Below, in pieces: positions 1 through 32,444 of a stretch of DNA of 57,832 nucleotides. The DNA lies in IMG/VR virus record IMGVR_UViG_3300047554_001015, positions 1-57,832 of that record. One strand, written 5' to 3'. A program made the translations under genes and the position numbers. The first letter of the stretch is position 1; each line of letters opens with the position of its first letter. Under the pieces are notes generated by a model. It searched no databases. It saw only the letters and a list, made by a program, of their open reading frames with translations, and was not told where the DNA came from. The DNA is from a virus (lineage: Duplodnaviria > Caudoviricetes).

Positions 1-23
1 TCCCCCGCCCCAAGACCCCAGAC

Positions 24-48
24 AATAAAAAAGCCCCTGGGTAGGGGC
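24..48 (-). terminator. intrinsic terminator (GCCCCT/AGGGGC hairpin, U-tract on minus strand)
   Basis: AATAAAAAAGCCCCTGGGTAGGGGC; same family as terminators at 41302, 42548, 44404, 45787. Confidence 0.8.
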
Positions 49-76
49 GGATCGTTAGGATTTGCTTTGGTCTATT

Positions 77-223
77 TTAGTCGGCTAGGGCGTGGGCTAG
101 GACTACCAGCGCTTCATTGCGCCAGACGATTTCATTAGGGGTTGGGGGACTGGCTTTAACGACCTTCTCAATCTCAATTAGCAGCTCGGAAATGCTGGCG
201 TAATATCCTGGGGGGTTAATCAT
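77..223 (-). CDS. small hypothetical protein (48 aa, MINPPGYY...)
   Basis: Translated by hand; preceded by the AAACGAAACC leader motif and a GCCCC hairpin like other early genes. Confidence 0.5.
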   Translation of the reverse strand: MINPPGYYASISELLIEIEKVVKASPPTPNEIVWRNEALVVLAHALAD

Positions 224-280
224 GGTTTCGTTTCCGGGGTTGGGTTTGCAGTAAAGCCCCCTAGGGAGGGGGCACTGGGT

Positions 281-682
281 TTAGATGGCTTGGTAGCCTA
301 GGAATCGGCCATTTTCCCAGACCTCTTCCAGAAGTCCTTTGCACTCATCCAGAAACCAGGCATCAGCCAGAGTGAGGGCGAAATGCTTGGCGAATTCCAT
401 CGCCGCTGTCTCAGCATCCACCAGCTTTTTGAAGCCGTTGGGGACTTGCTCCCCGTTGATGCTCAGATAGTCATCCAGGTCTTCCGGCTCATGCTCGGTG
501 GCGTAAACCACCCATTTGCCGTCAATCTTTTCAATTAGTACCTCATAGTCAAAACTCTGACCATCGGGGATCATGTGTTCCGGGAATGTGGGGGCGAAAA
601 TCTCAGCGTTGACACTGCGAACGCCGAATTTGTCTTTTTTCCAGAAGGTGGAGGTTTTGGGGGTCTTGGTTTTGGTGGCCAT
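281..682 (-). CDS. hypothetical early protein
   Basis: ORF 281-733; start moved to MATKTK after AAGGAG SD, downstream of promoter 729-757. Confidence 0.7.
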   Translation of the reverse strand: MATKTKTPKTSTFWKKDKFGVRSVNAEIFAPTFPEHMIPDGQSFDYEVLIEKIDGKWVVYATEHEPEDLDDYLSINGEQVPNGFKKLVDAETAAMEFAKHFALTLADAWFLDECKGLLEEVWENGRFLGYQAI

Positions 683-728
683 GGTCGTTGTCTCCTTGTG
701 GGGTGGGTGTTTCCGTTTCAATAAATTC

Positions 729-757
729 AACATAAGTCTATTCTGTTATTCTGTCAA
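729..757 (-). promoter_or_regulatory. sigma70-type early promoter
   Basis: TTGACA-N17-TATGTT within TGCCAAGTGTGTTGACA. Confidence 0.75.
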
Positions 758-804
758 CACACTTGGCAGACTTTTTTTTGGGGGAGGCGGCTCCCCCCGT
801 GGGC

Positions 805-1179
805 TTAGTAGATTTGCCGCCCTTCCGTGACCAGCACGTCATAGCGGCGACCGTCCACGTTGGCACCGGACTGGTCCCGCCAGTGGGGGGCGATCCGGGG
901 GTTGTAGGCAACCTTGGGGGCATCCCCTACCCACTCAGCGGGCACAGGGGACTTGGGCCACGCCGTAACCGTGTCGGCATCGATCCATGCGCACACCGTC
1001 TTGCTGGCCCCAGCGTTGATTTTGCGGGCCGTGGCGGGTTGGTTCCGCAGTGTGCAGCCATGAAGGGTCAAGTCGGTCATGGCGGGGTCGTAGTAGGCAA
1101 TCTCCCCCGGTGTGGTGTCCTTGACCTGCCAGTGCATGAAGTGGGCACCGGCTGCTAGATGGAATCGAACTTTGTACAT
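805..1179 (-). CDS. hypothetical early protein (124 aa)
   Basis: GGAGG SD, AAACGAAA leader, directly downstream of the twister ribozyme at 1204-1255. Confidence 0.75.
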   Translation of the reverse strand: MYKVRFHLAAGAHFMHWQVKDTTPGEIAYYDPAMTDLTLHGCTLRNQPATARKINAGASKTVCAWIDADTVTAWPKSPVPAEWVGDAPKVAYNPRIAPHWRDQSGANVDGRRYDVLVTEGRQIY

Positions 1180-1203
1180 GGGATCCTCCGTGTGTTTTCG
1201 TTT

Positions 1204-1255
1204 GCTCCCCTCTGCATTGTTCCGGGCTTGGGACCGGCATAGGCTGCATTAGAGC
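1204..1255 (-). ncRNA. twister ribozyme (type P1), downstream copy
   Basis: GCUCU^AAUGCAGCCUAUGCCGGUCCCAAGCCCGGAACAAUGCAGAGGGGAGC: P1 GCUC/GAGC, P2 UGCA/UGCA, GGUCNNAAGCCC loop, GCC/GGU and CC/GG pseudoknots; cleavage predicted 1251/1250. Confidence 0.9.
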
Positions 1256-1277
1256 GGGGGGCGGCCCCCGGACTGCC

Positions 1278-1604
1278 TTAGTAGCAGTCGATGGTCTCGA
1301 CTTGCTGAATGGTGCAAGCCTTGATGTCCAGTCGGACACTAGCAAAGCCATCGTAAAACCGCTTTGCATAGGCGAAGGCGTGATCCTCGTAGGATTCGAG
1401 AATGAAGCCATCGTAAACACGGGGCAGCATATCTTCCCGCTTCCACAGGTCGCGGTGAGCGGTGCGGGTATGCACTTGGCAGTGCAGGTCAACCGCAACC
1501 GTGATGTCTACAGAAGAGCCATCAACGAATGCCAGGTGAATCTGCCAAAAAGTAGGGCACTCAATGTCATCTTGAAGAACGTGCAGCACTTTGGTGTTGG
1601 TCAT
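1278..1604 (-). CDS. hypothetical protein (108 aa) between two twister ribozymes
   Basis: ORF with GGAAAACGAAA leader; no recognisable family. Confidence 0.7.
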   Translation of the reverse strand: MTNTKVLHVLQDDIECPTFWQIHLAFVDGSSVDITVAVDLHCQVHTRTAHRDLWKREDMLPRVYDGFILESYEDHAFAYAKRFYDGFASVRLDIKACTIQQVETIDCY

Positions 1605-1628
1605 TTTCGTTTTCCTTGGTAGTGTGGG

Positions 1629-1680
1629 CTGTCACTCTGCATTTACACGGGCTTGTGACCGTCAGTGGCTGCATTAACAA
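1629..1680 (-). ncRNA. twister ribozyme (type P1), upstream copy
   Basis: UUGUU^AAUGCAGCCACUGACGGUCACAAGCCCGUGUAAAUGCAGAGUGACAG: compensatory changes versus the other copy in P1, P4 (AC/GU vs CC/GG) and the 2-bp pseudoknot (AC/GU vs CC/GG); cleavage predicted 1676/1675. Confidence 0.88.
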
Positions 1681-1777
1681 ATCCTTGTCGTTACGGTTTG
1701 CTGTCTTTTCCGGGGCTGCTCTCGCTCGCAGGTAGCGGGCCTCTTTCGGGGGGCCAACCCTCTTGGGTATGTAAATC

Positions 1778-1806
1778 AATATAAGGGAATACTGCTACGC
1801 TGTCAA
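1778..1806 (-). promoter_or_regulatory. sigma70-type early promoter
   Basis: TTGACA-gcgtagcagtattccct-TATATT (N17); near-identical to 41775-41803. Confidence 0.85.
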
Positions 1807-1909
1807 CACACTTGGCAAAGTTTTTTTAGCTGGCCCAAATCCCACAGTGGGGGGGTCTCTCCGTAGTCGATTACGGTTACATGGCTAGAGCCAATTTGTT
1901 AGCGCCAAC

Positions 1910-1933
1910 AAAAAGCCCCCTGAATTGGGGGCT
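1910..1933 (-). terminator. intrinsic terminator
   Basis: AAAAAGCCCCC-TGAATT-GGGGGCT. Confidence 0.7.
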
Positions 1934-1963
1934 GCATTTCGCTGGGGTTAGCCTAGCAGGGAG

Positions 1964-2202
1964 CTAGCTATAAAGTTCGTGGATATCATCTCGATTGTAT
2001 TGAAGTCCCCGTTGATACTCCTCAATGGTCCATTGCAAAATATGGGGATTGATGGTCCCTAGGCGCATGAGGTCGGTCAGCCAAATTGAGACGCGGGCAT
2101 ACAGCACGGGGTCTTGGAGGGCGTAGGCTGTGACCAGATAGGGGTGAATCCAAACACCACCGCCAGAGGAGCGATCATATCAAAAAAAGATACAATAGCC
2201 AC
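1964..2202 (-). pseudogene. KilA-N-like gene remnant (internal deletion or frame break)
   Basis: GGAG-GTG start (VAIVSFFD) is out of frame with DRSSGGGVWIHPYLVTAYA...VSIWLTDLMRLG, which resembles the KilA-N GTWxHP...W..ELM..G C-terminal motif. Confidence 0.55.
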
Positions 2203-2268
2203 AGTAAATCTCCGTACTAGATTTGCTCTGCCCTAGGGGATGGCTGTCCCGCTAGGGCTTTAACCATT

Positions 2269-2541
2269 TTAACCGAACTCCCGATCAATAATCTCCAGTG
2301 CCTCCAGCAACGGCATGGTTTGCAGCAACTCATCCAGCCGCCGCTCATGGCCGCTGATTCCCTGTAGGTGAGGGGCTGCGGCTAGTATGCGATCGGGGAG
2401 GGAGTGCCAAACTGCGGGACTGCTCTTCCCGTCGTGATGATTTTGCTCAACCCCCCAAGTGTCCCCCGTCATTTTCTTAAACGACATCCACCCATCCACA
2501 AGAAACCGCCGAGCCAGTTCAACCTCAATCCTGGGATCCAT
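2269..2541 (-). CDS. stand-alone paralog of the Dam methylase target-recognition segment (90 aa)
   Basis: ATG overlaps the methylase stop (TGATG); ARRFLVDGWMS...WHSLPDRIL matches ARRYLVDGWMS...WHSLPTRIL in the upstream gene. Confidence 0.7.
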   Translation of the reverse strand: MDPRIEVELARRFLVDGWMSFKKMTGDTWGVEQNHHDGKSSPAVWHSLPDRILAAAPHLQGISGHERRLDELLQTMPLLEALEIIDREFG

Positions 2542-3092
2542 CAGAACAGCCCCAACTGACCGCTGAGGCTCACTGTGGGGCCATCTGCCTTGTGCTTGCG
2601 GATGAGCAATAGTTCTTGGCGTTTGGGGCGGGTGCGGGTTTTGCTCTGACGGGTGATTCCGGCTGAACTGGCTACGGTCTCTTTGTAGTGCCGTTCCCAA
2701 TGCTCCTCTGGGTAAAGCTCATCCACCAAATCGCAGGGGTAATAGGAGACCGCAACACAGGCGGCTTCCACGGTGTTCAAGGCTGCGGCCAGCCGGTAGT
2801 GCAGGTCTAGGCTGTCTTCCTTGCCGCTGGTTTTGTTGTGGGCGTAGTAGTCCTCCAGCCCCACATAGGGAGGGTCGGCATAGATGCATGTGTGGGGCGT
2901 GGCCCAGCGCTCAATCACGGCCACAGCGTCATCGTTTTCGATATAACACCGCTTAAGATGGTCGGTCGCGTTGAGAATGCGGGTGGGGAGGGAGTGCCAG
3001 CCGAAGATACCTTCCCCGTATGCCTTAACTTCAGATGTGTCAAAATTCCAGCAGCACCCAGGTCTTCTCACTGTACTCATCCACCCATCCAC
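2395..3092. repeat. two pairs of identical 15-bp direct repeats bracketing variable methylase segments
   Basis: GGGGAGGGAGTGCCA at 2395-2409 and 2985-2999; CATCCACCCATCCAC at 2485-2499 and 3078-3092. Confidence 0.9.
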
Positions 3093-3473
3093 CAAATATC
3101 GCCTAGCCTCCTCAATCTCATCCAGATCCTCTAGGTTGCCGTCTCCCTTGCCTTGGGCTAGGCGGTGTTCTTCTCTGCTGTAGGGGGTGAAGGCTATGGC
3201 ATGGGCCAGCGCTTCGGGGTAATCCCGGCAGGCGCGGAACAGTTGCACAATGCGGCTATCGGCATCGTTCAGCACAGCACGGGGGTGGTGACCACGGGCG
3301 CGGATTTGCTCAAAAATGCCCTCACTGACCAGCCGAAAATAGACGGCACCCGACCCCACAAATGGCTCACAGTAGATTGACCATTGAAACCGCTTGAGAT
3401 GCTCAATAATCCACGGGGCCAGTCGTGCCTTGCCCCCAACCCTGCCAATGATGGGCTTGACGCTACTCCCCAT
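2541..3473 (-). CDS. DNA adenine methyltransferase, Dam/D12 family
   Basis: GGKARLA, YCEPFVGSGAV (motif I), LNDAD, YADPPY (motif IV); C-terminal QLGLF. Confidence 0.92.
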   Translation of the reverse strand: MGSSVKPIIGRVGGKARLAPWIIEHLKRFQWSIYCEPFVGSGAVYFRLVSEGIFEQIRARGHHPRAVLNDADSRIVQLFRACRDYPEALAHAIAFTPYSREEHRLAQGKGDGNLEDLDEIEEARRYLVDGWMSTVRRPGCCWNFDTSEVKAYGEGIFGWHSLPTRILNATDHLKRCYIENDDAVAVIERWATPHTCIYADPPYVGLEDYYAHNKTSGKEDSLDLHYRLAAALNTVEAACVAVSYYPCDLVDELYPEEHWERHYKETVASSAGITRQSKTRTRPKRQELLLIRKHKADGPTVSLSGQLGLF

Positions 3474-3630
3474 CGATCTGCCCCGCCACAAAATTGACCA
3501 CATCATCAAAAGTAATGAGATCCCCGTCTAGCCCGGAGCCGACAAAAATACCCAGCCAAAAGCAAATGGCATAAAACAGGGTTGTGGTACTGAGCAGAGA
3601 GAATTGCTTTTCGAGTTTGTCCTTGTCCAT
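3463..3630 (-). CDS. small membrane protein
   Basis: MDKDKLE start; one hydrophobic segment. Confidence 0.5.
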   Translation of the reverse strand: MDKDKLEKQFSLLSTTTLFYAICFWLGIFVGSGLDGDLITFDDVVNFVAGQIDGE

Positions 3631-3800
3631 GGTTTTCGCCTCAATGTTATGCCCATCATACCAGGGCAACATCATCAACACATACAGAAAAAATAAAAGG
3701 ATCCCCCAGAGAGAGATCCCACAAGAGGAGAGGAAAGATGAGTTAATTCTACTCCTCTTTTTTTGTGGAATTTTTTCCTAGGGGGTCTTTTTCTTGTGCC

Positions 3801-4125
3801 AGTTGGTTGCTGCAACCATTGCTGCTGAATGCTGCCAATTTGCTGAATGATGACAGACTGCTGCCACTGCTGGCAGCATCCGAAACCCGCACTGTGCCTA
3901 CATTACAGCCGACTGCTGCCAATGCTGCCAAAATTTTCGCCGCGCCGATCTCAACTTTTTTCTGCGATTTTCATTCCTCTCTAAAAAAAGTGGCAGCATT
4001 GGCAGCATCCAACCTGAAACCCTTGTCCCGTCTGGCTTTGGGTATGCTGCCACAAGTGCTACAACGAATGCTGCAAACAAAAAGTGGCAGCATTCATTTG
4101 GCAGCATTCAGCAGTCAGCAGCGGT
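3801..4125. repeat. TGCTGCCA iteron element, copy A (origin-like)
   Basis: Many TGCTGC(C/A)A and TGGCAGCA motifs; perfect 17-bp inverted repeat 3914-3930/3991-4007 around a 60-bp core with A/T tracts; homologous to 27138-27436 and 45451-45755. Confidence 0.8.
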
Positions 4126-4208
4126 TTAGTACAGGCTTACTCTGTGACAGTCAGCCAACAAAAAAGGAGGGTGTGACCCCTCCCCTGTGGAAACCTCTCA
4201 CCAGCATT

Positions 4209-4856
4209 TTATCTGCGGCGATCGCTCAGTTGCCAGCCCCGGTATTGCTCCAATTCCCCCCTCAATAGCTTGCGAAAATAGTCAGGGGTGAGGCCGTGGG
4301 ACCGGGCAAATCTTTGGGGAACCTCGGTGATGGTGTAGACCTTCCCCTCAGGACTCAGCACACGGGGGGCCAACTTTCTGCGCCAGTGGTTGATCAGTTG
4401 AGAGGATACCGGTTCCCTGAAAACCCGATAAATCTGTTGGGAGGATCCCCCGCTGGTTTTGCTGGCGGAAATCAACCGGCAATCCTCAAGCCGCTGGCTG
4501 ATGTGGTAGCAAGCCCCTCCAAACATTTGCCGCTTTTCCCGGTTGCTGACAACCCAGGGAAACACATCCTGATCCAGGCTCAGCAGATAGAGCCAGAATG
4601 CAAAGGGCTGGGCTTTCAACCTGAGTTCCCGGCCTATCTCCCACAATTGGAGGTCGCAGTTGGTCCCGTACCAGCGATCGGGGATTGGCCCGTAGGCATC
4701 GCTCACCAGCTTACGAGCTGCGGCCCCCCAGCCATTGCTGGCATAGCGGAATGAGTCTCGTTCAATTTTGTCCGGCGAGATGGTGCCCCGGTAGGAGTCC
4801 AAAAAGCAGCGACCCCGGAACTCCACGGGGGTCTTGAGTAGGTCTGTGTTTAGCAT
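4209..4856 (-). CDS. putative DNA-binding protein (winged-helix-like middle, NUMOD1/IENR1-like C-terminus)
   Basis: FWLYLLSL...RLEDCRLIS...IYRVFREP and SPEGKVYTI..VPQRFARSHGL...LLRG...YRGW. Confidence 0.55.
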   Translation of the reverse strand: MLNTDLLKTPVEFRGRCFLDSYRGTISPDKIERDSFRYASNGWGAAARKLVSDAYGPIPDRWYGTNCDLQLWEIGRELRLKAQPFAFWLYLLSLDQDVFPWVVSNREKRQMFGGACYHISQRLEDCRLISASKTSGGSSQQIYRVFREPVSSQLINHWRRKLAPRVLSPEGKVYTITEVPQRFARSHGLTPDYFRKLLRGELEQYRGWQLSDRRR

Positions 4857-6328
4857 GGCTGCCCCTTCATGCTTAGCAACCCCACATCCTGCACATAGCT
4901 TTTGCCGTCCCGCAATCCTTGGCTAGCGGTTGCAAGCTCAATCCCCAGATAAGCAGCATGGGCGGGGGCGATCGCTGGGTTGTCTAGGCAGATTTCCCGC
5001 ATCAGCTTCAGCGGTTTCGTGCCTTGGTAGCGCCGCACTTCCTCCCCTGTGGGACTGGTCTGCACTATCACCAAATGCCGCCCCTCAACTTCAATCTGGA
5101 AATTTCCCGCAGGGTCGCCATAGGTCGGCTTGCTTTTGCCGTAGTGGTTTGCAATTAGCCGGTCTGCATTCTCCCAGCAGTCATCGTAAATATGGGCGCT
5201 TTGGCTAATCGTGATCAGCGGCCCCATGGTTAGTCGGAACCCGTGGCCCTTGACCCGTTCAAAAATATGGCGCTGCAAAGCTCGTAAACCCATGGCATTG
5301 GAGGGCCACGCGCTAAACATGTCATTGGAGCGAAACGTGGCGGTTAGGCTCAACTCCCCGTCAACCACCCGCAGCCAAATGTGGTTTAAGCAGGGACTGC
5401 CGCCCTTCTCATGGTCCTTCACGTCCCACAGGTTCATCACTGCACTAGCCGCGTCAATTTCCCCCGCCAATTTCTTGACCACCTGGTCAATTTGGTCCAC
5501 CCCAAACCAGGACCGCAGCCGCTGGCCATAGGTATACTTGACCCCCTCCTGATACGGGGCATCGGCCAAAATCTGGGGAATGTAATTACTGATTGCTTCC
5601 CGGTCTACCGGCAAATAATTTGGTTCCGGGAAATAGCCTTGCTCTGGCTCATCCGTCACCACTGCCACCAAATCAATCAACTCTTGCCAGTTGCCATCGT
5701 ATCCTGTGGGGCGGATGGTCCCGGTGGTTTTGATGCGGTGGACAATTTTTACCCAGGTCTCAGCAATGGTGCGGCCCTCAATGCGGTGACCATAGCGGGG
5801 GCCGGGTAGCACCGTTGGCAGAACTTCATGGGGCGGGAAGGCTTGGGGCTGCCCCCACGGGATTGGGCTTTGGGGCCACAGTGGGGCAGACTCCACAAGG
5901 GTATCCAATGACTCGTAAAGGTGCGGAGTTACCGAGTCCCGAATGGTTTGGAGCCAGAATTCGGGAATCTCGATGTCAATAAAGGCCGGGGCGGTACCCT
6001 TCACGACCCAGCACTCCACCCCCGTGTCGGTCTGCCCCTGCTCAAACCCCCAGTAAAAAAAATCCCACAACCGAAAACAGGACTGGGAATTGCGGTCTTC
6101 CTTGGTAGCGCTGAGGATGATTAGATCCCGAACTTGGGGGTTGGCTAGGAGATTTCTAATCAGCGTAGAGATGCCCCGTGCAGGGCTGTAAAGCTGGCCG
6201 ATCGCGGCGTAGGTTGTGGGGTCTAGCTTGCGGGCTACGGCTTCCTTGACGGTCCATCCTGTCACGATGACGGGGGCACCTGTGCCCAATATGATTTGAC
6301 CAGCTTTTTGAATCGGTTTATAGGTCAT
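4850..6328 (-). CDS. thyA: thymidylate synthase with N- and C-terminal accessory domains (cyanobacterial MtrA-like/DUF4346-type architecture)
   Basis: YTYGQRL, catalytic PCL, FRSNDM..AWPSN, SAHIY. Confidence 0.88.
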   Translation of the reverse strand: MTYKPIQKAGQIILGTGAPVIVTGWTVKEAVARKLDPTTYAAIGQLYSPARGISTLIRNLLANPQVRDLIILSATKEDRNSQSCFRLWDFFYWGFEQGQTDTGVECWVVKGTAPAFIDIEIPEFWLQTIRDSVTPHLYESLDTLVESAPLWPQSPIPWGQPQAFPPHEVLPTVLPGPRYGHRIEGRTIAETWVKIVHRIKTTGTIRPTGYDGNWQELIDLVAVVTDEPEQGYFPEPNYLPVDREAISNYIPQILADAPYQEGVKYTYGQRLRSWFGVDQIDQVVKKLAGEIDAASAVMNLWDVKDHEKGGSPCLNHIWLRVVDGELSLTATFRSNDMFSAWPSNAMGLRALQRHIFERVKGHGFRLTMGPLITISQSAHIYDDCWENADRLIANHYGKSKPTYGDPAGNFQIEVEGRHLVIVQTSPTGEEVRRYQGTKPLKLMREICLDNPAIAPAHAAYLGIELATASQGLRDGKSYVQDVGLLSMKGQPC

Positions 6329-9973: not shown

Positions 9974-10825
9974 CTAGGGCTTGCGTGCAGACTCATGCAG
10001 GATCTTGGGCACAGCATTTTCCCACAAAACCTTATGGTGTAGCCGTTTATGGTTCTGGCCCAACTGAGTAATTCTGACGGCAGATGGGCAATACATGATG
10101 GTGTAAAAGCTTTTGACGAATGTACCAGCGTCTAGATACATATCAGTCAGCCCGCCCGGATTTGACTGCGTTTGTAGCTGAGTGATTCTTGCATCATGGA
10201 CAGACAAAAACAGCCCACCCTTGTGCCCTAGTGCAACATAGGTGTTCACATCATCATTCATCCTTCCAAGGAACTGAAAAGGCTTGTCTGTGGAACAGAA
10301 AAAAGTCTGCATTACTTTTCTTTTGCATGATTTCCTTGTTCCACTGCCACCATAGCCACCCATAAAATCTCCCCCTTGAGCCATAGCAACAGAGAGGAAT
10401 GGTGTCTTTTCCAAAAAGTCAACGAAGGCATTAAATATCTCATCAATACTCAAGAGTCGTTTTTGTTTAATCACTCCTTCGGCATTGCAAGTAAAAGAAA
10501 ACTCTGTGTAGTCATCATCCAGTTCCACGAAATATTTGTAGCCAAGTTTTTTGGCAATAGCAAAGCACTCATTTCTGGCATAAACCACAGATGCCCGACT
10601 GTCTCGGTTGTCCCCTGCGTCGGTGACTTTAGCCGCATCAGCTTTGCAAAACTGAATAACCTTGTCGCCGTAGTTTTTGCGATATTGCTCCACTGTGGCA
10701 TCTTCATCATCCACGACAATAAACCATGGTCCTGTGTAGCCTGAGTTCCTCAATGATTGCAAGGTTCTAATGTTGTCTGGCCGACCGTGACTGAGAATGA
10801 GAACACAAAAATCTTTCCTAATCAT
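9974..10825 (-). CDS. GT-A glycosyltransferase, TET-associated (TAGT)/GREB1-like family
   Basis: ILSHGRPD, IVVDDED, YARN, ELDDDY (DxD), GRMNDDV, QSNPGG..D.Y. Confidence 0.75.
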   Translation of the reverse strand: MIRKDFCVLILSHGRPDNIRTLQSLRNSGYTGPWFIVVDDEDATVEQYRKNYGDKVIQFCKADAAKVTDAGDNRDSRASVVYARNECFAIAKKLGYKYFVELDDDYTEFSFTCNAEGVIKQKRLLSIDEIFNAFVDFLEKTPFLSVAMAQGGDFMGGYGGSGTRKSCKRKVMQTFFCSTDKPFQFLGRMNDDVNTYVALGHKGGLFLSVHDARITQLQTQSNPGGLTDMYLDAGTFVKSFYTIMYCPSAVRITQLGQNHKRLHHKVLWENAVPKILHESARKP

Positions 10826-11623
10826 CACCGTAGTCCTTGGAATACTGAGACCGAATCGACTCACAAAGCATTACATAGTTTTTCTCGATAGCTTGGTCAA
10901 AGTCAATAATGACCAGTGCAGAGTCTTCCATAAGTCTTTGGATCTCAGGGGATGCGCCTGCATAATATTCTGCGATCTTGCCAAAGTTAAAAACAGTATG
11001 GCGGTATGCTGCCATCTTGAGAAATTCCACAACATGGGGGTCATCAATGTCAGCATCAGAAATCCTCTTTATCATTTCCTTTGTCTTGTGTGGGTCGTAA
11101 AGGTCTGAGATGTCTGGATTCTCCCCCGTTGGCGTGTAAATTGGTGCCTCAATCTTGCGGGTATAAACTTCCTCATCCCCGTCATCATCAATGTCCCCCT
11201 CCATGTCCCAACCATCAAGCCCCTCTATTTCCTCATCAGTAAACAGCCAGGAAATATCAATCTCATCCGCCACAACCTTCAGAGCGTCAATGTCCCAATT
11301 AAGGCCAAGTTCAGAGGCTCGGTTATCAGTAACCGCCAGCTTTTTGGCCTTGGGGTCTGTGGATAAATCTAGGTCAGTCCGTTGTACCACAACAACGCGA
11401 TCGCCCGTGGTCTCAACGATGACCACATCCTCAATCCCAGCATCTAACGCGGCTGCGGCGGTTTTGTTGCCAGCGATGATGTAGCCGTTTTTGTCCACAA
11501 GGATGGACCGACCGGCCCCCATTCTGCCAGGGATTGCTTGATAACATTGCGCCCCCGCTCAGTCCCTAGGTTGAGGTTGTTTGGGTCTTGCTGTAGGTCA
11601 GAGAGTTTTAGTTTTTTAGCCAT
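10818..11623 (-). CDS. ParB/Srx-like N-terminal domain protein with uncharacterised C-terminal domain; frame broken at 11516-11522
   Basis: MAKKLKLSDLQQDPNNLNLGTERGRNVIKQSLAE (11623-11522) continues in the -1 frame as GAGRSILVDKNGYIIAGNKT...LAVTDNRASE..WD. Confidence 0.75.
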
Positions 11624-29308: not shown

Positions 29309-29623
29309 ATGGACAAGAACCAATTCAAGTCTGAAGTCGCCGGAGTCTTCTCCGGCAAGGTAATTAAGGATCCAGACGTTCCCACAGAAACGGACATCTT
29401 CACCCTTGTGGTATCTACTCCATCTGGGGATTTAGTTGGCATAGCTTGCTACGTCCCGGCCCTTCGCCGGTACACATGGAGCGCGCATCGATCCATCCTT
29501 AACGATCAAGTTTTATATGGGCGGGGGAAAACCCTGTTTCAGGCTGTGCGAGATGCCAAGCCGAAGACTATTGCCCAGCGATACCAGAAATGGGTCGCAT
29601 CGGTGGCAGGGATTCAACCATGA
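29309..29623 (+). CDS. hypothetical protein
   Basis: AAAACGAAAACC leader. Confidence 0.65.
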   Translation: MDKNQFKSEVAGVFSGKVIKDPDVPTETDIFTLVVSTPSGDLVGIACYVPALRRYTWSAHRSILNDQVLYGRGKTLFQAVRDAKPKTIAQRYQKWVASVAGIQP

Positions 29624-30555
29624 GCCAAGCCGAACTAATCCCACAAATTACCGGGGGGCACCTCCCTTTCATTCCGGTCTATCCCGGCAATAAATCCAAG
29701 TCAATTTATCGGTCCTGGATTTTTGGGAAGCGGTTCCAATGGGGGGCAGTTCTGGAGCCTTTTGCCGGAACCGGGGCCACATCCCTTTATGCCCGGTGCG
29801 ATCGCCGGTTCATTGGGGAAGCCGCCCCCGATGTTTGGTCAATTTGGCGGTGCTGGCTGGACGGGAATTGGGATGCCGTCCAGTGGGAGATTCAGGAATA
29901 TCGAAAAATGGCTCCTGATGTTGCGTGGCACCGGGCCACATGGGTTTATGAAAAGCCGGACCCCCACATTGAGACCCTAGGGCGTTGCCGCATTGAGTTG
30001 GCCGCAGCCTCCCTAGTTATCCGCAAACTGGCTTTTGGCGGGGTTGTCCGCCACAACAAAAAGGGCCAGTTGAATGTGGCCTGGAGTCCTCACAAGGTTG
30101 AGGCGTTCCACAACTGGCAAGCCCCAGCCCCCGCACCCTTCCCCGGTTGGAAACTGACCAAGGACTGGCGGGATGCTGTGGAATGGTGGCAAGAGGCTGA
30201 CATTGCCGACAGCCTGGTTTTATTGGATCCCCCTTACTACTTGCCCTATGCACCGGGCACAGAACGAGGGGGAACCGGACTAATGACCCCCGCATACCGT
30301 GGCCATCAGCCCCACAGTGAGGAATGCCTAGCCCTAACCTTGGACCCGTTGCGGATGGTGGCAACCAACCCCAACGCCAAGCGGATTGTGGTCTGCAACT
30401 ATTTTAGCTCCCGGTTGCAGATTGAGATTGAGGCCATAGCCCATGCCACAGGCCGAATGCTGAGCCATCACGACTTTGGAGCCATGAACCACATGAACCG
30501 GGGGCATGGCCAGCCCAAGGTCAAAGCAGTCGAACGTTTTTGGATTTTGGAGTGA
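29620..30555 (+). CDS. second Dam-like DNA adenine methyltransferase
   Basis: YPGNK, LEPFAGTGA, FGG..R.N.KG..NV, LLDPPY. Confidence 0.8.
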   Translation: MSQAELIPQITGGHLPFIPVYPGNKSKSIYRSWIFGKRFQWGAVLEPFAGTGATSLYARCDRRFIGEAAPDVWSIWRCWLDGNWDAVQWEIQEYRKMAPDVAWHRATWVYEKPDPHIETLGRCRIELAAASLVIRKLAFGGVVRHNKKGQLNVAWSPHKVEAFHNWQAPAPAPFPGWKLTKDWRDAVEWWQEADIADSLVLLDPPYYLPYAPGTERGGTGLMTPAYRGHQPHSEECLALTLDPLRMVATNPNAKRIVVCNYFSSRLQIEIEAIAHATGRMLSHHDFGAMNHMNRGHGQPKVKAVERFWILE

Positions 30556-31745: not shown

Positions 31746-32444
31746 ATGGACTTTTCAGATAACCAAAAACTTCTGGAGCAATTCGCAGCCGCCCCCACTG
31801 TGGAACTGCGGAACCAAATTGCGACCCGCAACGATAAGCTAGCCCTGAAGATTGCCCACCGCTGTGCAGCTACCACAGACACGCCGCTGGCGGATTTAGA
31901 ACAGTTAGCTAGACAAGGGTTACTCAAAGCGATCGAGCGGTTTGACCCCAAAACTGGCAACGCGCTCAGCTCCTTTGCGGTGCCCTACATCCGGGGGGAG
32001 ATTCAGCACTACCTGAGAGACCAACGGCTGATCCGAGTGCCCCGCACTTGGCAGGAACTGCGGGACCGGGCCGACCGGGTAGCCAAGCGCCTGACTGATG
32101 CGGGTAGACTGGCCACGATTGACGATGCTGCGGCTGGGCTTGGGCTAGGTTCCACAGAGTGGGAAGAGATCAAAAATGCCACGTCTCCCCATCTGGCCGT
32201 AGCCATTGAGGAAAACGTGGCAATCGAAGATTCTGTGGAAGAGTCAGAGGAATCAGACCAGCTTACAGCGGCCCTTTGTGAAGCCATTGGCCAACTGCCC
32301 GCACTGCAACGGACTCTGATCACCGAATCATTCTGGGGTGGTCTACAGGAAAAGCATTTGGCGATCCGCCATGGCTTGACCCGCGCCCAAGTGCGCCAGG
32401 AAATTCAATCAGCGATCGGTCAGCTTCAGAAAATGGCGCAATAA
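31746..32444 (+). CDS. RNA polymerase sigma factor, SigF/SigB family
   Basis: RNQI...N..LA.KIAHR, DLEQ....GLLKAIERFDP..G.A.SSFAVPYIRGEIQHYLRD, IRVPR; region 4 HTH. Confidence 0.93.
   Translation: MDFSDNQKLLEQFAAAPTVELRNQIATRNDKLALKIAHRCAATTDTPLADLEQLARQGLLKAIERFDPKTGNALSSFAVPYIRGEIQHYLRDQRLIRVPRTWQELRDRADRVAKRLTDAGRLATIDDAAAGLGLGSTEWEEIKNATSPHLAVAIEENVAIEDSVEESEESDQLTAALCEAIGQLPALQRTLITESFWGGLQEKHLAIRHGLTRAQVRQEIQSAIGQLQKMAQ

What the first reader, a model, noticed from the sequence alone, without database searches (positions are those of the whole stretch)
1204..1806. Two twister ribozymes excise a single early ORF from a phage transcript
Seen: two 52-nt minus-strand elements (1680-1629 and 1255-1204) carry the twister core U^AAUGCAGCC...GGUCNNAAGCCC...AAUGCAGAG. 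They differ by compensatory changes in P1, P4 and the 2-bp pseudoknot (AC/GU vs CC/GG), so structure rather than sequence is conserved. They flank the 108-aa ORF 1278-1604 and lie downstream of a strong sigma70 promoter (1778-1806). Established: twister cleaves U^A, leaving 5'-OH and 2',3'-cyclic phosphate ends, the substrate of RtcB ligase; engineered twister pairs yield circular RNA this way. Inference: the transcript is self-processed into a ~95-nt 5' RNA, a 425-nt one-gene unit (1675-1251) and a 5'-OH mRNA for the 124-aa ORF. The middle unit could circularise or be stabilised, and its re-ligated junction would have a mismatched P1. This would be a protein-free operon-processing or circular-mRNA system in a cyanophage.
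Basis: partly seen in the sequence, partly recalled or inferred. Interest (0 to 1): 0.92.

Follow-up and report, generated by a model that had tools for sequence, protein, structure and literature searches.

The report
Two twister ribozymes bracket a phage gene
Two genuine self-cutting twister RNA motifs sit on either side of one small gene in an uncultured freshwater phage and most likely chop its transcript into separate messages, an arrangement that is real but already known in kind from other phages.

Summary
Rfam's twister-P1 model matches window 1204-1255(-) and 1629-1680(-) at 58.0 and 57.9 bits, E 1.8e-10 for the whole window. Both fall below the curated cut-off of 67.2 only because the optional P3 hairpin is absent. 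Every one of the 17 differences between the copies is either compensatory (P1, P4, pseudoknot T1) or lies in a linker.

The kind is not new. 46 of 114 unique twisters there share the P3-less form. 35 of 112 twister-bearing sources carry 2-4 copies, always on one strand. Clustered hammerheads flanking single prophage genes, with the same processing and circle ideas, were published in 2011 (PMC3088659).

Best reading: co-transcriptional cutting at 1676/1675 and 1251/1250 yields a leader, a one-gene mRNA ending in a hairpin, and a downstream mRNA headed by the folded ribozyme. This is the layout of the engineered pRAP vector. A circular mRNA is unsupported and disfavoured. "Cyanophage" is plausible but unproven. 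No RNA data were available, so cleavage itself is inferred.

The parts
1914..1933 (-). Intrinsic-terminator-like hairpin with T tail that ends the upstream transcription unit
   Evidence: 7-pair stem with 6 G-C pairs, followed by a T-rich tail.
1778..1806 (-). σ70-type promoter-like site (TTGACA, 17-nt spacer, TATATT)
   Evidence: matches 11 of 12 positions. Three sites of at least 9 of 12 were found in 4 kb, against 2.2 expected from shuffles. A consensus match only; function not shown.
1676..1771 (-). Predicted 5' leader of about 96 nt, released with a 2',3'-cyclic phosphate end
   Evidence: The start is inferred from the -10 box. The fold is no better than shuffles (z -0.48).
1629..1680 (-). 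Twister ribozyme B (type P1, no P3); predicted cleavage between 1676 and 1675
   Evidence: 57.9 bits, E 1.8e-10; 73.3 bits with R1. No upstream hairpin (-0.2 kcal/mol).
1613..1617 (-). Shine-Dalgarno-like AAGGA, 8 nt before the ATG of the 108-aa ORF
   Evidence: Read.
1278..1604 (-). 108-aa ORF with no known relatives; fills 88% of the interval between the ribozymes
   Evidence: No Pfam or PHROG family. It matches only itself among 5.8 billion clusters and has no viral-contig relative. The Atlas model has pLDDT 0.39 and no usable hit.
1256..1269 (-). 5-bp G-C hairpin (GGGGG / CCCCC, 4-nt loop) abutting twister A; predicted 3'-end protector of the one-gene mRNA
   Evidence: -8.9 kcal/mol; present in the MFE and centroid folds. 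The same feature occurs in 80 of 142 unique viral twisters against 48 of 710 random windows.
1204..1255 (-). Twister ribozyme A (type P1, no P3); predicted cleavage between 1251 and 1250
   Evidence: 58.0 bits, E 1.8e-10; 66.0 bits. The MFE fold shows P1, P2 and P4.
1185..1189 (-). Shine-Dalgarno GGAGG, 5 nt before the ATG of the 124-aa ORF
   Evidence: Read.
805..1179 (-). 124-aa ORF, first gene of the downstream 5'-OH mRNA
   Evidence: Weak Pfam Phage_L5_gp82 match (E 6.7e-5, 23.2 bits, below the 27-bit cut-off). Relatives at 43-59% identity occur in 3 viral and 26 metagenome loci.

Best explanation
Both elements are active minimal (P3-less) type-P1 twister ribozymes on one transcript that starts at the promoter-like site 1806-1778(-). 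As the RNA is made, each cuts at its own U^A.

Copy B (cut at 1676/1675) removes the ~96-nt leader and its 5'-triphosphate end. Copy A (cut at 1251/1250) separates the 108-aa ORF from the 124-aa ORF and whatever follows.

Each released mRNA starts with a 5'-OH inside the compact remainder of a twister. A Shine-Dalgarno site and the start codon follow exactly 24 nt after the ribozyme. The one-gene mRNA ends in a G-C hairpin plus five nucleotides carrying a 2',3'-cyclic phosphate.

The likely purpose is to give small accessory genes defined, context-independent mRNA ends. That would uncouple their stability and translation from their neighbours, which is a natural equivalent of the engineered stem-loop/twister/RBS cistron separator.

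Shown here: the motifs, their covariation, their placement, and the recurrence of the layout in other phage contigs. Inferred: transcription from this promoter, cleavage in vivo, and the effect on stability or translation.
For: - **Identity.** RF03160 matches at 58.0 and 57.9 bits, E 1.8e-10. The in-session model R1 gives 73.3 and 66.0 bits against a background maximum of 8.6 bits.
- **Structure.** In an alignment of 46 P3-less twisters including both copies, 95.7% of cells are paired. 8 of 16 pairs show changes on both sides. The covariation score is 0.377, against 0.105 in shuffles (0 of 500 reach it) and 0.010-0.073 when partners are slid. The T1 pair is A-U in 44 sequences, C-G in 1 (copy A) and U-A in 1.
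- **Folding.** The MFE fold of copy A with flanks is exactly hairpin + P1 + P2 + P4.
- **Placement.** Both copies end 24 nt before a start codon. That equals the median over 141 evaluable viral twisters, of which 110 lie within 40 nt of a start, against 320 of 725 random positions.
- **Arrays.** 35 of 112 sources have 2 or more twisters, and all 35 have them on one strand. Single-ORF intervals occur in L011, L026/L034/L054, L079, L097 and L102 as well as the window.
- **Hairpin.** A hairpin of -8 kcal/mol or better precedes 80 of 142 unique twisters, against 48 of 710 random windows. It abuts the ribozyme with gap 0 in 52 of 76 cases. It is commoner when an ORF ends within 60 nt upstream: 62 of 92 against 14 of 41, Fisher p 5.6e-4. 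The window follows this rule, since copy A has both an upstream ORF and a hairpin and copy B has neither.
- **Engineered parallel.** pRAP uses stem-loop, twister, RBS and ORF in that order. It cleaves in E. coli, and it needed the stem-loop for the upstream cistrons to be expressed (PMC9872166 passages).
- **Published parallel.** Clustered hammerheads flank single genes in prophages and cleave ~2-kb transcripts in vitro, and in one case in E. coli (PMC3088659 passages).
Against: - **No RNA evidence.** No RNA run holds the stretch, so neither transcription nor cleavage is shown.
- **Below the curated cut-off.** Both matches score below Rfam's 67.2 bits (one search found nothing at gathering thresholds).
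- **Weak thermodynamic support.** Folding z-scores are not significant (-0.45 to +0.72). For copy B with flanks, the MFE is a competing fold and only the centroid keeps P2 and P4.
- **No link to the downstream gene.** None of the 3 viral or 26 metagenome loci encoding relatives of the 124-aa ORF has a twister (Rfam was run on 19 of the 26).
- **Counts are not independent.** The 112 sources fall into 34 homology clusters, the multi-copy loci into 8, and one cluster holds 43 sources. Many alignment columns were fixed by the search pattern.
- **Direction of the stability effect is unknown.** As I recall (not read here), the 5'-OH product of the glmS ribozyme is degraded rather than protected in Bacillus.
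Confidence: 0.72

Rival explanations
1. Down-tuning device. The ribozymes do cleave, but the point is to shorten mRNA life. Removing the triphosphate leader exposes 5'-OH ends to host 5'-end-dependent RNases, which keeps a possibly toxic early ORF at a low or transient level.
For: The ribozymes are as well supported as in the main reading. The 2019 review says cleavage could give transcripts of different stability or translation efficiency (PMC6765202 passage). The 108-aa ORF has no known relatives and no known function.
Against: A protective hairpin sits exactly where the upstream mRNA would end, and across loci it tracks the presence of an upstream ORF. That argues for preserving the cut product. 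In pRAP the same layout raised expression of every cistron.
Confidence: 0.12
2. Cassette boundary or hitchhiker. The twisters travel with, or mark the edges of, exchangeable accessory-gene cassettes. They persist because of that linkage, with little effect on expression of this operon.
For: In a Mu-like phage group, the genes flanking a twister pair are 78-83% identical between loci. The genes between the pair are absent or only 53-72% identical (with annotation). Contigs of relatives in runs X4 and X5 match the window across twister B down to 1551 and then run on unlike it for hundreds of bases (table 8). Perreault 2011 notes that the flanked genes are not constant. Relatives of the 124-aa ORF lack twisters.
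Against: This does not explain the tight spacing to start codons or the upstream hairpin. It is compatible with the main reading rather than exclusive of it. The metagenome evidence comes from short contigs at 80% likeness.
Confidence: 0.08
3. Circular mRNA. The 425-nt fragment (5'-OH at 1675, cyclic phosphate at 1251) is joined by a host RtcB-type ligase into a circular, exonuclease-resistant message.
For: The end chemistry of twister products suits RtcB, and the engineered Tornado system makes circles this way (PMC11263348 passages). The chimeric junction would have 0 of 4 P1 pairs (read).
Against: The window has no RtcB, RNA_ligase or T4 Rnl1-type match, though the record is only 84% complete and the host is unknown. 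Both ribozymes are type P1, so the fragment keeps the folded ribozyme at its 5' end, where the 5'-OH is described as buried and poorly ligatable. P1 is reported dispensable for cleavage, so a circle would recreate a cleavable site. Circles were looked for and not detected in hammerhead arrays. The 3' hairpin suggests a linear product.
Confidence: 0.05
4. Inactive look-alikes. The motifs are decayed or chance matches that do not cleave.
For: Both score below Rfam's gathering threshold. P1 is only 4 bp, with one G-U pair in copy B. No cleavage data exist.
Against: E is 1.8e-10 for each of two independent copies. All 17 differences spare the pairing. All columns that are invariant in 46 relatives are kept. 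The P3-less form is 46 of 114 unique viral twisters, and the crystallised O. sativa 'basic P1 form' also lacks P3.
Confidence: 0.03

Closest known systems
Type-P1 twister ribozyme (Rfam RF03160; 'basic P1 form' as in the O. sativa structure 4OJI)
   Same: It has the P1-P2-P4 stems, pseudoknots T1 and T2, a U^A cleavage site near the 5' end and the conserved loop and junction nucleotides. Lack of the optional P3 and P5 stems is described for the O. sativa form (PMC6154101 passage).
   Different: It scores 9 bits below the curated Rfam cut-off because the model carries P3. It sits in a freshwater tailed-phage contig, whereas the cellular genomes with this exact P3-less pattern are mostly gut Clostridia (67 stretches, none titled cyanobacterium).
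Clustered hammerhead ribozymes flanking genes in prophages (Perreault et al. 2011, PMC3088659; passages read)
   Same: Several same-strand self-cleaving ribozymes flank individual genes or short gene blocks of varying identity in phage DNA. The proposed role is processing long transcripts into single-gene mRNAs. The circle and splice idea was raised there too.
   Different: The ribozyme class differs (hammerhead, not twister). Their arrays were shown to cleave in vitro, and one in E. coli. Here nothing has been assayed.
pRAP ribozyme-assisted polycistronic expression vector (PMC9872166; passages read)
   Same: The order of parts is identical: stem-loop, twister cutting at its 5' end, RBS, ORF. 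In pRAP the stem-loop upstream of the cut was required for expression of the upstream cistrons.
   Different: pRAP is engineered, T7-driven and uses one repeated ribozyme. The window carries two diverged natural copies (67% identical), and the first copy, which has no gene upstream, lacks the stem-loop.
Tornado twister-based circular RNA expression (described in PMC11263348; passages read)
   Same: A twister pair leaves 5'-OH and 2',3'-cyclic phosphate ends that RtcB can join.
   Different: As I recall (not read here), Tornado uses a P3-type and a P1-type twister, so both ribozymes are cut off and the ends pair in a ligation stem. Here both are P1-type. The 5' ribozyme stays on the fragment and no end-pairing stem is evident.
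Bacterial twister motifs in 3' UTRs and polycistronic mRNAs (Felletti et al. 2017, cited in PMC6765202; paper not held, abstract recalled only)
   Same: The paper suggests that bacterial twisters process polycistronic mRNAs. It also suggests that structures left at the 3' end after cleavage set mRNA stability.
   Different: I could not read it, so I cannot say how far it overlaps the hairpin statistics made here.

Membership tests
Twister ribozyme, type P1 (RF03160) | Nested stems P1, P2 and P4 in the family's order | tested here: met
   The cmscan alignment covers model positions 1-68 for both copies. All 11 nested pairs are standard pairs in both copies (A1). The MFE folds show P1, P2 and P4.
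Twister ribozyme, type P1 (RF03160) | Two pseudoknots (T1, T2) between the P4 loop and the internal loops | tested here: met
   T2 (2 pairs) and T1 (3 pairs) are complementary in both copies. The central T1 pair is compensated (C-G in copy A, A-U in copy B). Across the 46 sequences it is A-U 44, C-G 1, U-A 1, with none unpaired.
Twister ribozyme, type P1 (RF03160) | Conserved core nucleotides, including the U-A scissile step | tested here: met
   Both copies carry every column that is invariant in A1 and match the upper-case consensus of RF03160, apart from the compensated T1 position. Many of those columns were fixed by my search pattern in the other 44 sequences, but not in the window copies, which Rfam found independently.
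Twister ribozyme, type P1 (RF03160) | Score at or above Rfam's curated gathering score (67.2 bits) | tested here: not met
   The scores are 58.0 and 57.9 bits. This is a curation threshold, not a structural feature. The deficit comes from the absent P3 hairpin, which is optional in the family (PMC6154101). E is 1.8e-10.
Twister ribozyme, type P1 (RF03160) | Site-specific self-cleavage giving 5'-OH and 2',3'-cyclic phosphate ends | not testable with these tools
   No RNA run holds the stretch. A cleavage assay is needed.
Ribozyme arrays that process phage polycistronic transcripts (Perreault 2011 type) | Two or more same-strand self-cleaving ribozymes flanking a gene or short gene block in phage DNA | tested here: met
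   Two same-strand copies lie 425 nt apart around one ORF. The record has portal, terminase, sheath, baseplate and tape-measure genes.
Ribozyme arrays that process phage polycistronic transcripts (Perreault 2011 type) | Both ribozymes lie on one transcript | tested here: inconclusive
   There is a promoter-like site upstream, and no terminator-like site on the minus strand between 1778 and 805. These are consensus scans only, with no RNA data.
Twister-derived circular RNA (Tornado-like) | RtcB-type ligase available, and ends freed of ribozyme and brought together | tested here: not met
   The window has no RtcB or RNA-ligase family match, and the host is unknown. Both ribozymes are P1-type, so the 5' end stays inside a folded ribozyme.

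The most novel reading that the evidence does not exclude
The 425-nt twister-bounded unit is more than a processed mRNA. A host RtcB-type ligase closes a fraction of it into a circular, exonuclease-resistant message for the orphan 108-aa protein, which would make it a natural bacterial-virus counterpart of engineered twister circles. The twister pair would also define a self-contained, swappable expression cassette. The evidence does not exclude this, but it is disfavoured by the ribozyme types, the 3' hairpin, the lack of any ligase gene in the record, and the reported dispensability of P1 for re-cleavage.
Probability: 0.05. Interest if true: 0.85.

Novelty: new member of a known kind. Interest (0 to 1): 0.38.

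Why it matters
The biological role of self-cleaving ribozymes in bacteria and phages is still described as largely elusive (PMC6765202). This locus is a compact case: one promoter, two diverged twisters, one orphan gene, one hairpin. It could be cloned as about 1.1 kb and tested directly.

The survey made here adds a general point. In viral contigs, twisters typically sit as hairpin / ribozyme / ~24 nt / start codon, often in same-strand arrays around small, fast-changing genes. That is the design synthetic biologists arrived at independently for separating cistrons.

If the host is a cyanobacterium, this would extend twisters beyond the gut Firmicute setting that dominates genome hits. None of this changes the kind of system. 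It is an ordinary, well-formed example rather than a new mechanism.

Tried and rejected
**RNA evidence.** No RNA holder was listed for window 700-2000, so expression and cleavage could not be examined.

**Contigs of four DNA runs** (X3, X4, X5, X7).
- Bins 1341-1474 had no cover in any of the four runs.
- One X5 contig joins 1198 to 1788 with 39 other letters between (side 25, likeness 80), which is too weak to build on.
- Only the best-supported differences were printed (331 not shown), so conservation inside the ribozymes could not be counted.

**Close relatives of the phage.**
- Megablast of 1-6000 against deposited phages: no match.
- Portal protein in viral contigs: 3 loci at 30-33% identity only.

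**The 108-aa ORF.** No relative was found anywhere and no structural lead.

**Relatives of the 124-aa ORF.**
- 3 viral and 26 metagenome loci, at least two of which are the same contigs.
- No twister or other ribozyme by R1 or by Rfam (on 19 of the 26). I left out L127, L130, L134, L136, L138, L141 and L143 to stay under the size cap.

**Leader RNA 1676-1772.** It folds no better than shuffles.

**Twister search in deposited phages.**
- Blastn of copy B found 7 records: crAss-like phages, a Bacteroides phage, Clostridium phage c-st and two 'Bacteriophage sp.' records from human fecal samples. None was a cyanophage. The method is insensitive for a 52-nt query.
- R1 on 5 cultured cyanophage genomes found 0 of 5. 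The tool notes that an empty answer shows little.

**Literature.**
- Searches found no paper in the held library describing natural twister pairs around phage genes or the hairpin-twister module.
- Roth 2014, Weinberg 2015 and Felletti 2017 are not held and may well cover this.
- Supplements were not consulted.

**Rows and loci dropped or missed.**
- One model hit cut by a locus end (L053 1-38) was left out of the table typed.
- Two of the 113 pattern loci (L022, L059) had no model hit.
- R1 missed at least one long-P3 copy (L064 near 2503-2526), so copy counts are lower bounds.

Full report
**What is there.**

The window is a 57,832-base linear IMG/VR virus record, estimated 84% complete. It carries portal, large terminase, tail sheath, baseplate and tape-measure genes.

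On the minus strand near its left end, Rfam's type-P1 twister model (RF03160) matches two places. One is 1204-1255 at 58.0 bits and the other is 1629-1680 at 57.9 bits. Both are full-length matches with E 1.8e-10 for the whole window. Nothing passes Rfam's curated thresholds.

The alignment shows why the two fall 9 bits short. The 16 model positions of the P3 hairpin are replaced by a 4-nt linker. P3 is optional in this family, and the crystallised O. sativa 'basic P1 form' lacks it too (PMC6154101, passages read).

No other ribozyme family (E up to 1) and no tRNA is present.

**Is it more than chance?**

I collected twisters from viral contigs with a core pattern. Of 114 unique full-length sequences, 46 have the same P3-less build, counting the two window copies.

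In their alignment (A1) I wrote out a structure with P1, P2, P4 and both pseudoknots:
- It pairs 95.7% of cells.
- 8 of 16 pairs change on both sides.
- The covariation score is 0.377. Shuffles give 0.105 (0 of 500 reach it), and sliding the partners gives 0.010-0.073.

Many columns were fixed by my pattern, so their invariance means nothing. P1, most of P4, one P2 pair and the central T1 pair were free, and they carry the signal.

A model built from A1 (R1) scores the window copies 73.3 and 66.0 bits. Nothing else in the window exceeds 8.6 bits with filters off.

The two copies differ at 17 of 52 positions. Twelve differences make six compensated pairs and five lie in linkers.

**Layout.**

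The parts run in this order on the minus strand:
- A terminator-like hairpin (1933-1914) closes the upstream unit.
- TTGACA-17-TATATT (1806-1778) matches 11 of 12 promoter positions.
- About 96 nt further on comes twister B.
- 24 nt after its end is the ATG of a 108-aa ORF (1604-1278), preceded by AAGGA.
- 8 nt after that ORF's stop codon comes a 5-bp G-C hairpin (1269-1256) that abuts twister A.
- 24 nt after twister A is the ATG of a 124-aa ORF (1179-805), preceded by GGAGG.

No terminator-like site lies on this strand between the promoter and 805.

The predicted products are a ~96-nt leader, a 425-nt one-gene RNA (1675-1251), and a downstream mRNA.

The 108-aa ORF has no relative and no family. 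The 124-aa ORF has relatives at 43-59% identity, and none of them has a twister nearby.

**How usual is this?**

R1 finds 152 complete twisters in 111 of the 113 pattern loci. With the window, 35 of 112 sources hold two or more, and in all 35 every copy is on the same strand. Spacings run from 104 to 3,299 nt.

Several intervals hold one small ORF:
- L011: 166 aa.
- L026, L034 and L054: 74-81 aa.
- L079: 62 aa.
- L097: 123 aa.
- L102: 69 aa.

Placement is also typical:
- The distance from a twister's 3' end to the next start codon has a median of 24 nt. 110 of 141 lie within 40 nt, against 320 of 725 random positions.
- The distance back to the previous stop codon has a median of 22 nt.

A stable hairpin (-8 kcal/mol or better in the 28 nt upstream) precedes 80 of 142 unique twisters, against 48 of 710 random windows. 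It touches the ribozyme with gap 0 in 52 of 76 cases. It is commoner when an ORF ends within 60 nt upstream: 62 of 92 against 14 of 41, p 5.6e-4.

The window obeys that rule. Copy A follows a gene and has the hairpin. Copy B follows a promoter and has none.

These counts are not independent. The 112 sources fall into 34 homology clusters, the largest with 43 members. The multi-copy loci fall into 8 clusters, and hairpins are seen in 18 of 34 clusters. The window forms a cluster of its own.

**How it most likely works.**

Twisters cut at U^A and leave a 2',3'-cyclic phosphate upstream and a 5'-OH downstream. This is established chemistry, summarised in PMC8782182 and PMC6154101.

The simplest reading is co-transcriptional separation of leader, ORF108 mRNA and ORF124 mRNA. 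The hairpin would guard the new 3' end, and the folded ribozyme remainder would cap the new 5' end.

The engineered pRAP vector has the same order of parts. It cleaves in E. coli, and it needed the stem-loop for upstream cistrons to be expressed (PMC9872166, passages read).

The idea itself is old. Perreault et al. described clustered hammerheads flanking single genes in prophages. They showed cleavage of ~2-kb transcripts, proposed processing into single-gene mRNAs, and looked for circles or spliced products without finding them (PMC3088659, passages read). The 2019 review repeats the suggestion for twisters and notes the phage association (PMC6765202).

**What is not supported.**

*Circular mRNA.*
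- The window encodes no RtcB or RNA ligase.
- Both ribozymes are P1-type, so the 5' end of the middle fragment stays inside a folded ribozyme. That 5'-OH is described as buried.
- P1 is reported dispensable for cleavage. The mismatched junction (0 of 4 pairs) would therefore not protect a circle.

*Cyanophage.*
- The eight best-listed TerL hits among deposited phages are all cyanophages, and so are the ten best-listed portal hits, at 27-39% identity.
- The DNA occurs in freshwater metagenomes.
- Against this, the sheath resembles proteobacterial phages.
- None of five such cyanophages has a twister.
- Cellular genomes with this exact P3-less pattern are mostly gut Clostridia (67 stretches).
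- I put the host guess at roughly 60%.

*Weak thermodynamic support.*
- Folding z-scores are unremarkable.
- Copy B with flanks has a competing MFE fold.

**A lead beyond the finding.**

In the largest cluster the twister pair follows MuA- and MuB-like transposition genes (L027). The flanking genes are 78-83% identical between loci. The genes between the ribozymes are missing or only 53-72% identical.

For the window itself, contigs of relatives match across twister B and then diverge inside the 108-aa ORF (table 8). This is weak evidence from short contigs.

Twister-bounded intervals may therefore be hot spots of accessory-gene turnover.

**Verdict.**

The processing inference is sound but untested. 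The circle idea is unlikely.

This is a new, tidy member of a known kind: ribozyme arrays that dice phage transcripts. It is not a new system.

Noticed in passing
L006-L118 (viral contigs), e.g. L010 1897-1954, L027 8845-8903: A G-C-rich hairpin directly abuts the 5' end of most viral twisters. It is commoner when a gene ends just upstream. Together with the ~24-nt spacing to the next start codon, this forms a recurrent hairpin/twister/SD/ORF module like the engineered pRAP design.
   Followed up: yes
L027 7252-11927 and its cluster (L010, L012, L073, L082, L095 and others): In Mu-like transposable phage contigs, a twister follows the MuA- and MuB-like genes and a second one lies 1.1-1.8 kb downstream. 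The small genes between them vary far more than the flanks.
   Followed up: partly
window 9974-10864(-), 4850-6328(-), 2541-3509(-), 29590-30555(+): A TET-associated glycosyltransferase (TAGT), a thymidylate-synthase-like protein fused to a DUF4346 pterin-binding domain, and two D12-class adenine methyltransferases are present. Together they suggest a DNA modification or hypermodification module.
   Followed up: no
window 31746-32444(+): The phage encodes a σ70-family sigma factor with regions 2 and 4.
   Followed up: no
window 729-757(-): A second promoter-like site (TTGACA-17-TATGTT, 10 of 12) overlaps the listed ATG at 733 of ORF 281-733. The real start is probably the internal Met 17 codons downstream, and this gene may have its own transcript.
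   Followed up: no
L068 1952-2114; L102 12152-12820; L053: Some contigs have very tight arrays. L068 has two twisters 104 nt apart with no ORF between them. L102 has three at ~300-nt spacing. L053 has four copies.
   Followed up: no
L010 3026-3083, L012 8840-8905, L091 779-832 and similar: In several loci a GGAG/AGGAG Shine-Dalgarno-like run starts within or right after the 3' strand of P1. Cleavage and loss of the short 5' strand of P1 might therefore unmask the ribosome-binding site.
   Followed up: no
window 1198-1788 and 1551 (contigs of runs X4, X5, X7): Relatives in other freshwater runs, and in one run labelled marine, match across the twister regions but run on unlike the window inside the 108-aa ORF. 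One contig joins 1198 to 1788 with 39 other letters. This comes from short contigs at 80% likeness.
   Followed up: partly
L145-L211 (genome contigs): The exact P3-less twister pattern occurs in 67 stretches of bacterial genomes. Most are Lachnospiraceae, Oscillospiraceae, Ruminococcus and Collinsella MAGs. Eight loci have 2-3 copies, always on one strand.
   Followed up: no
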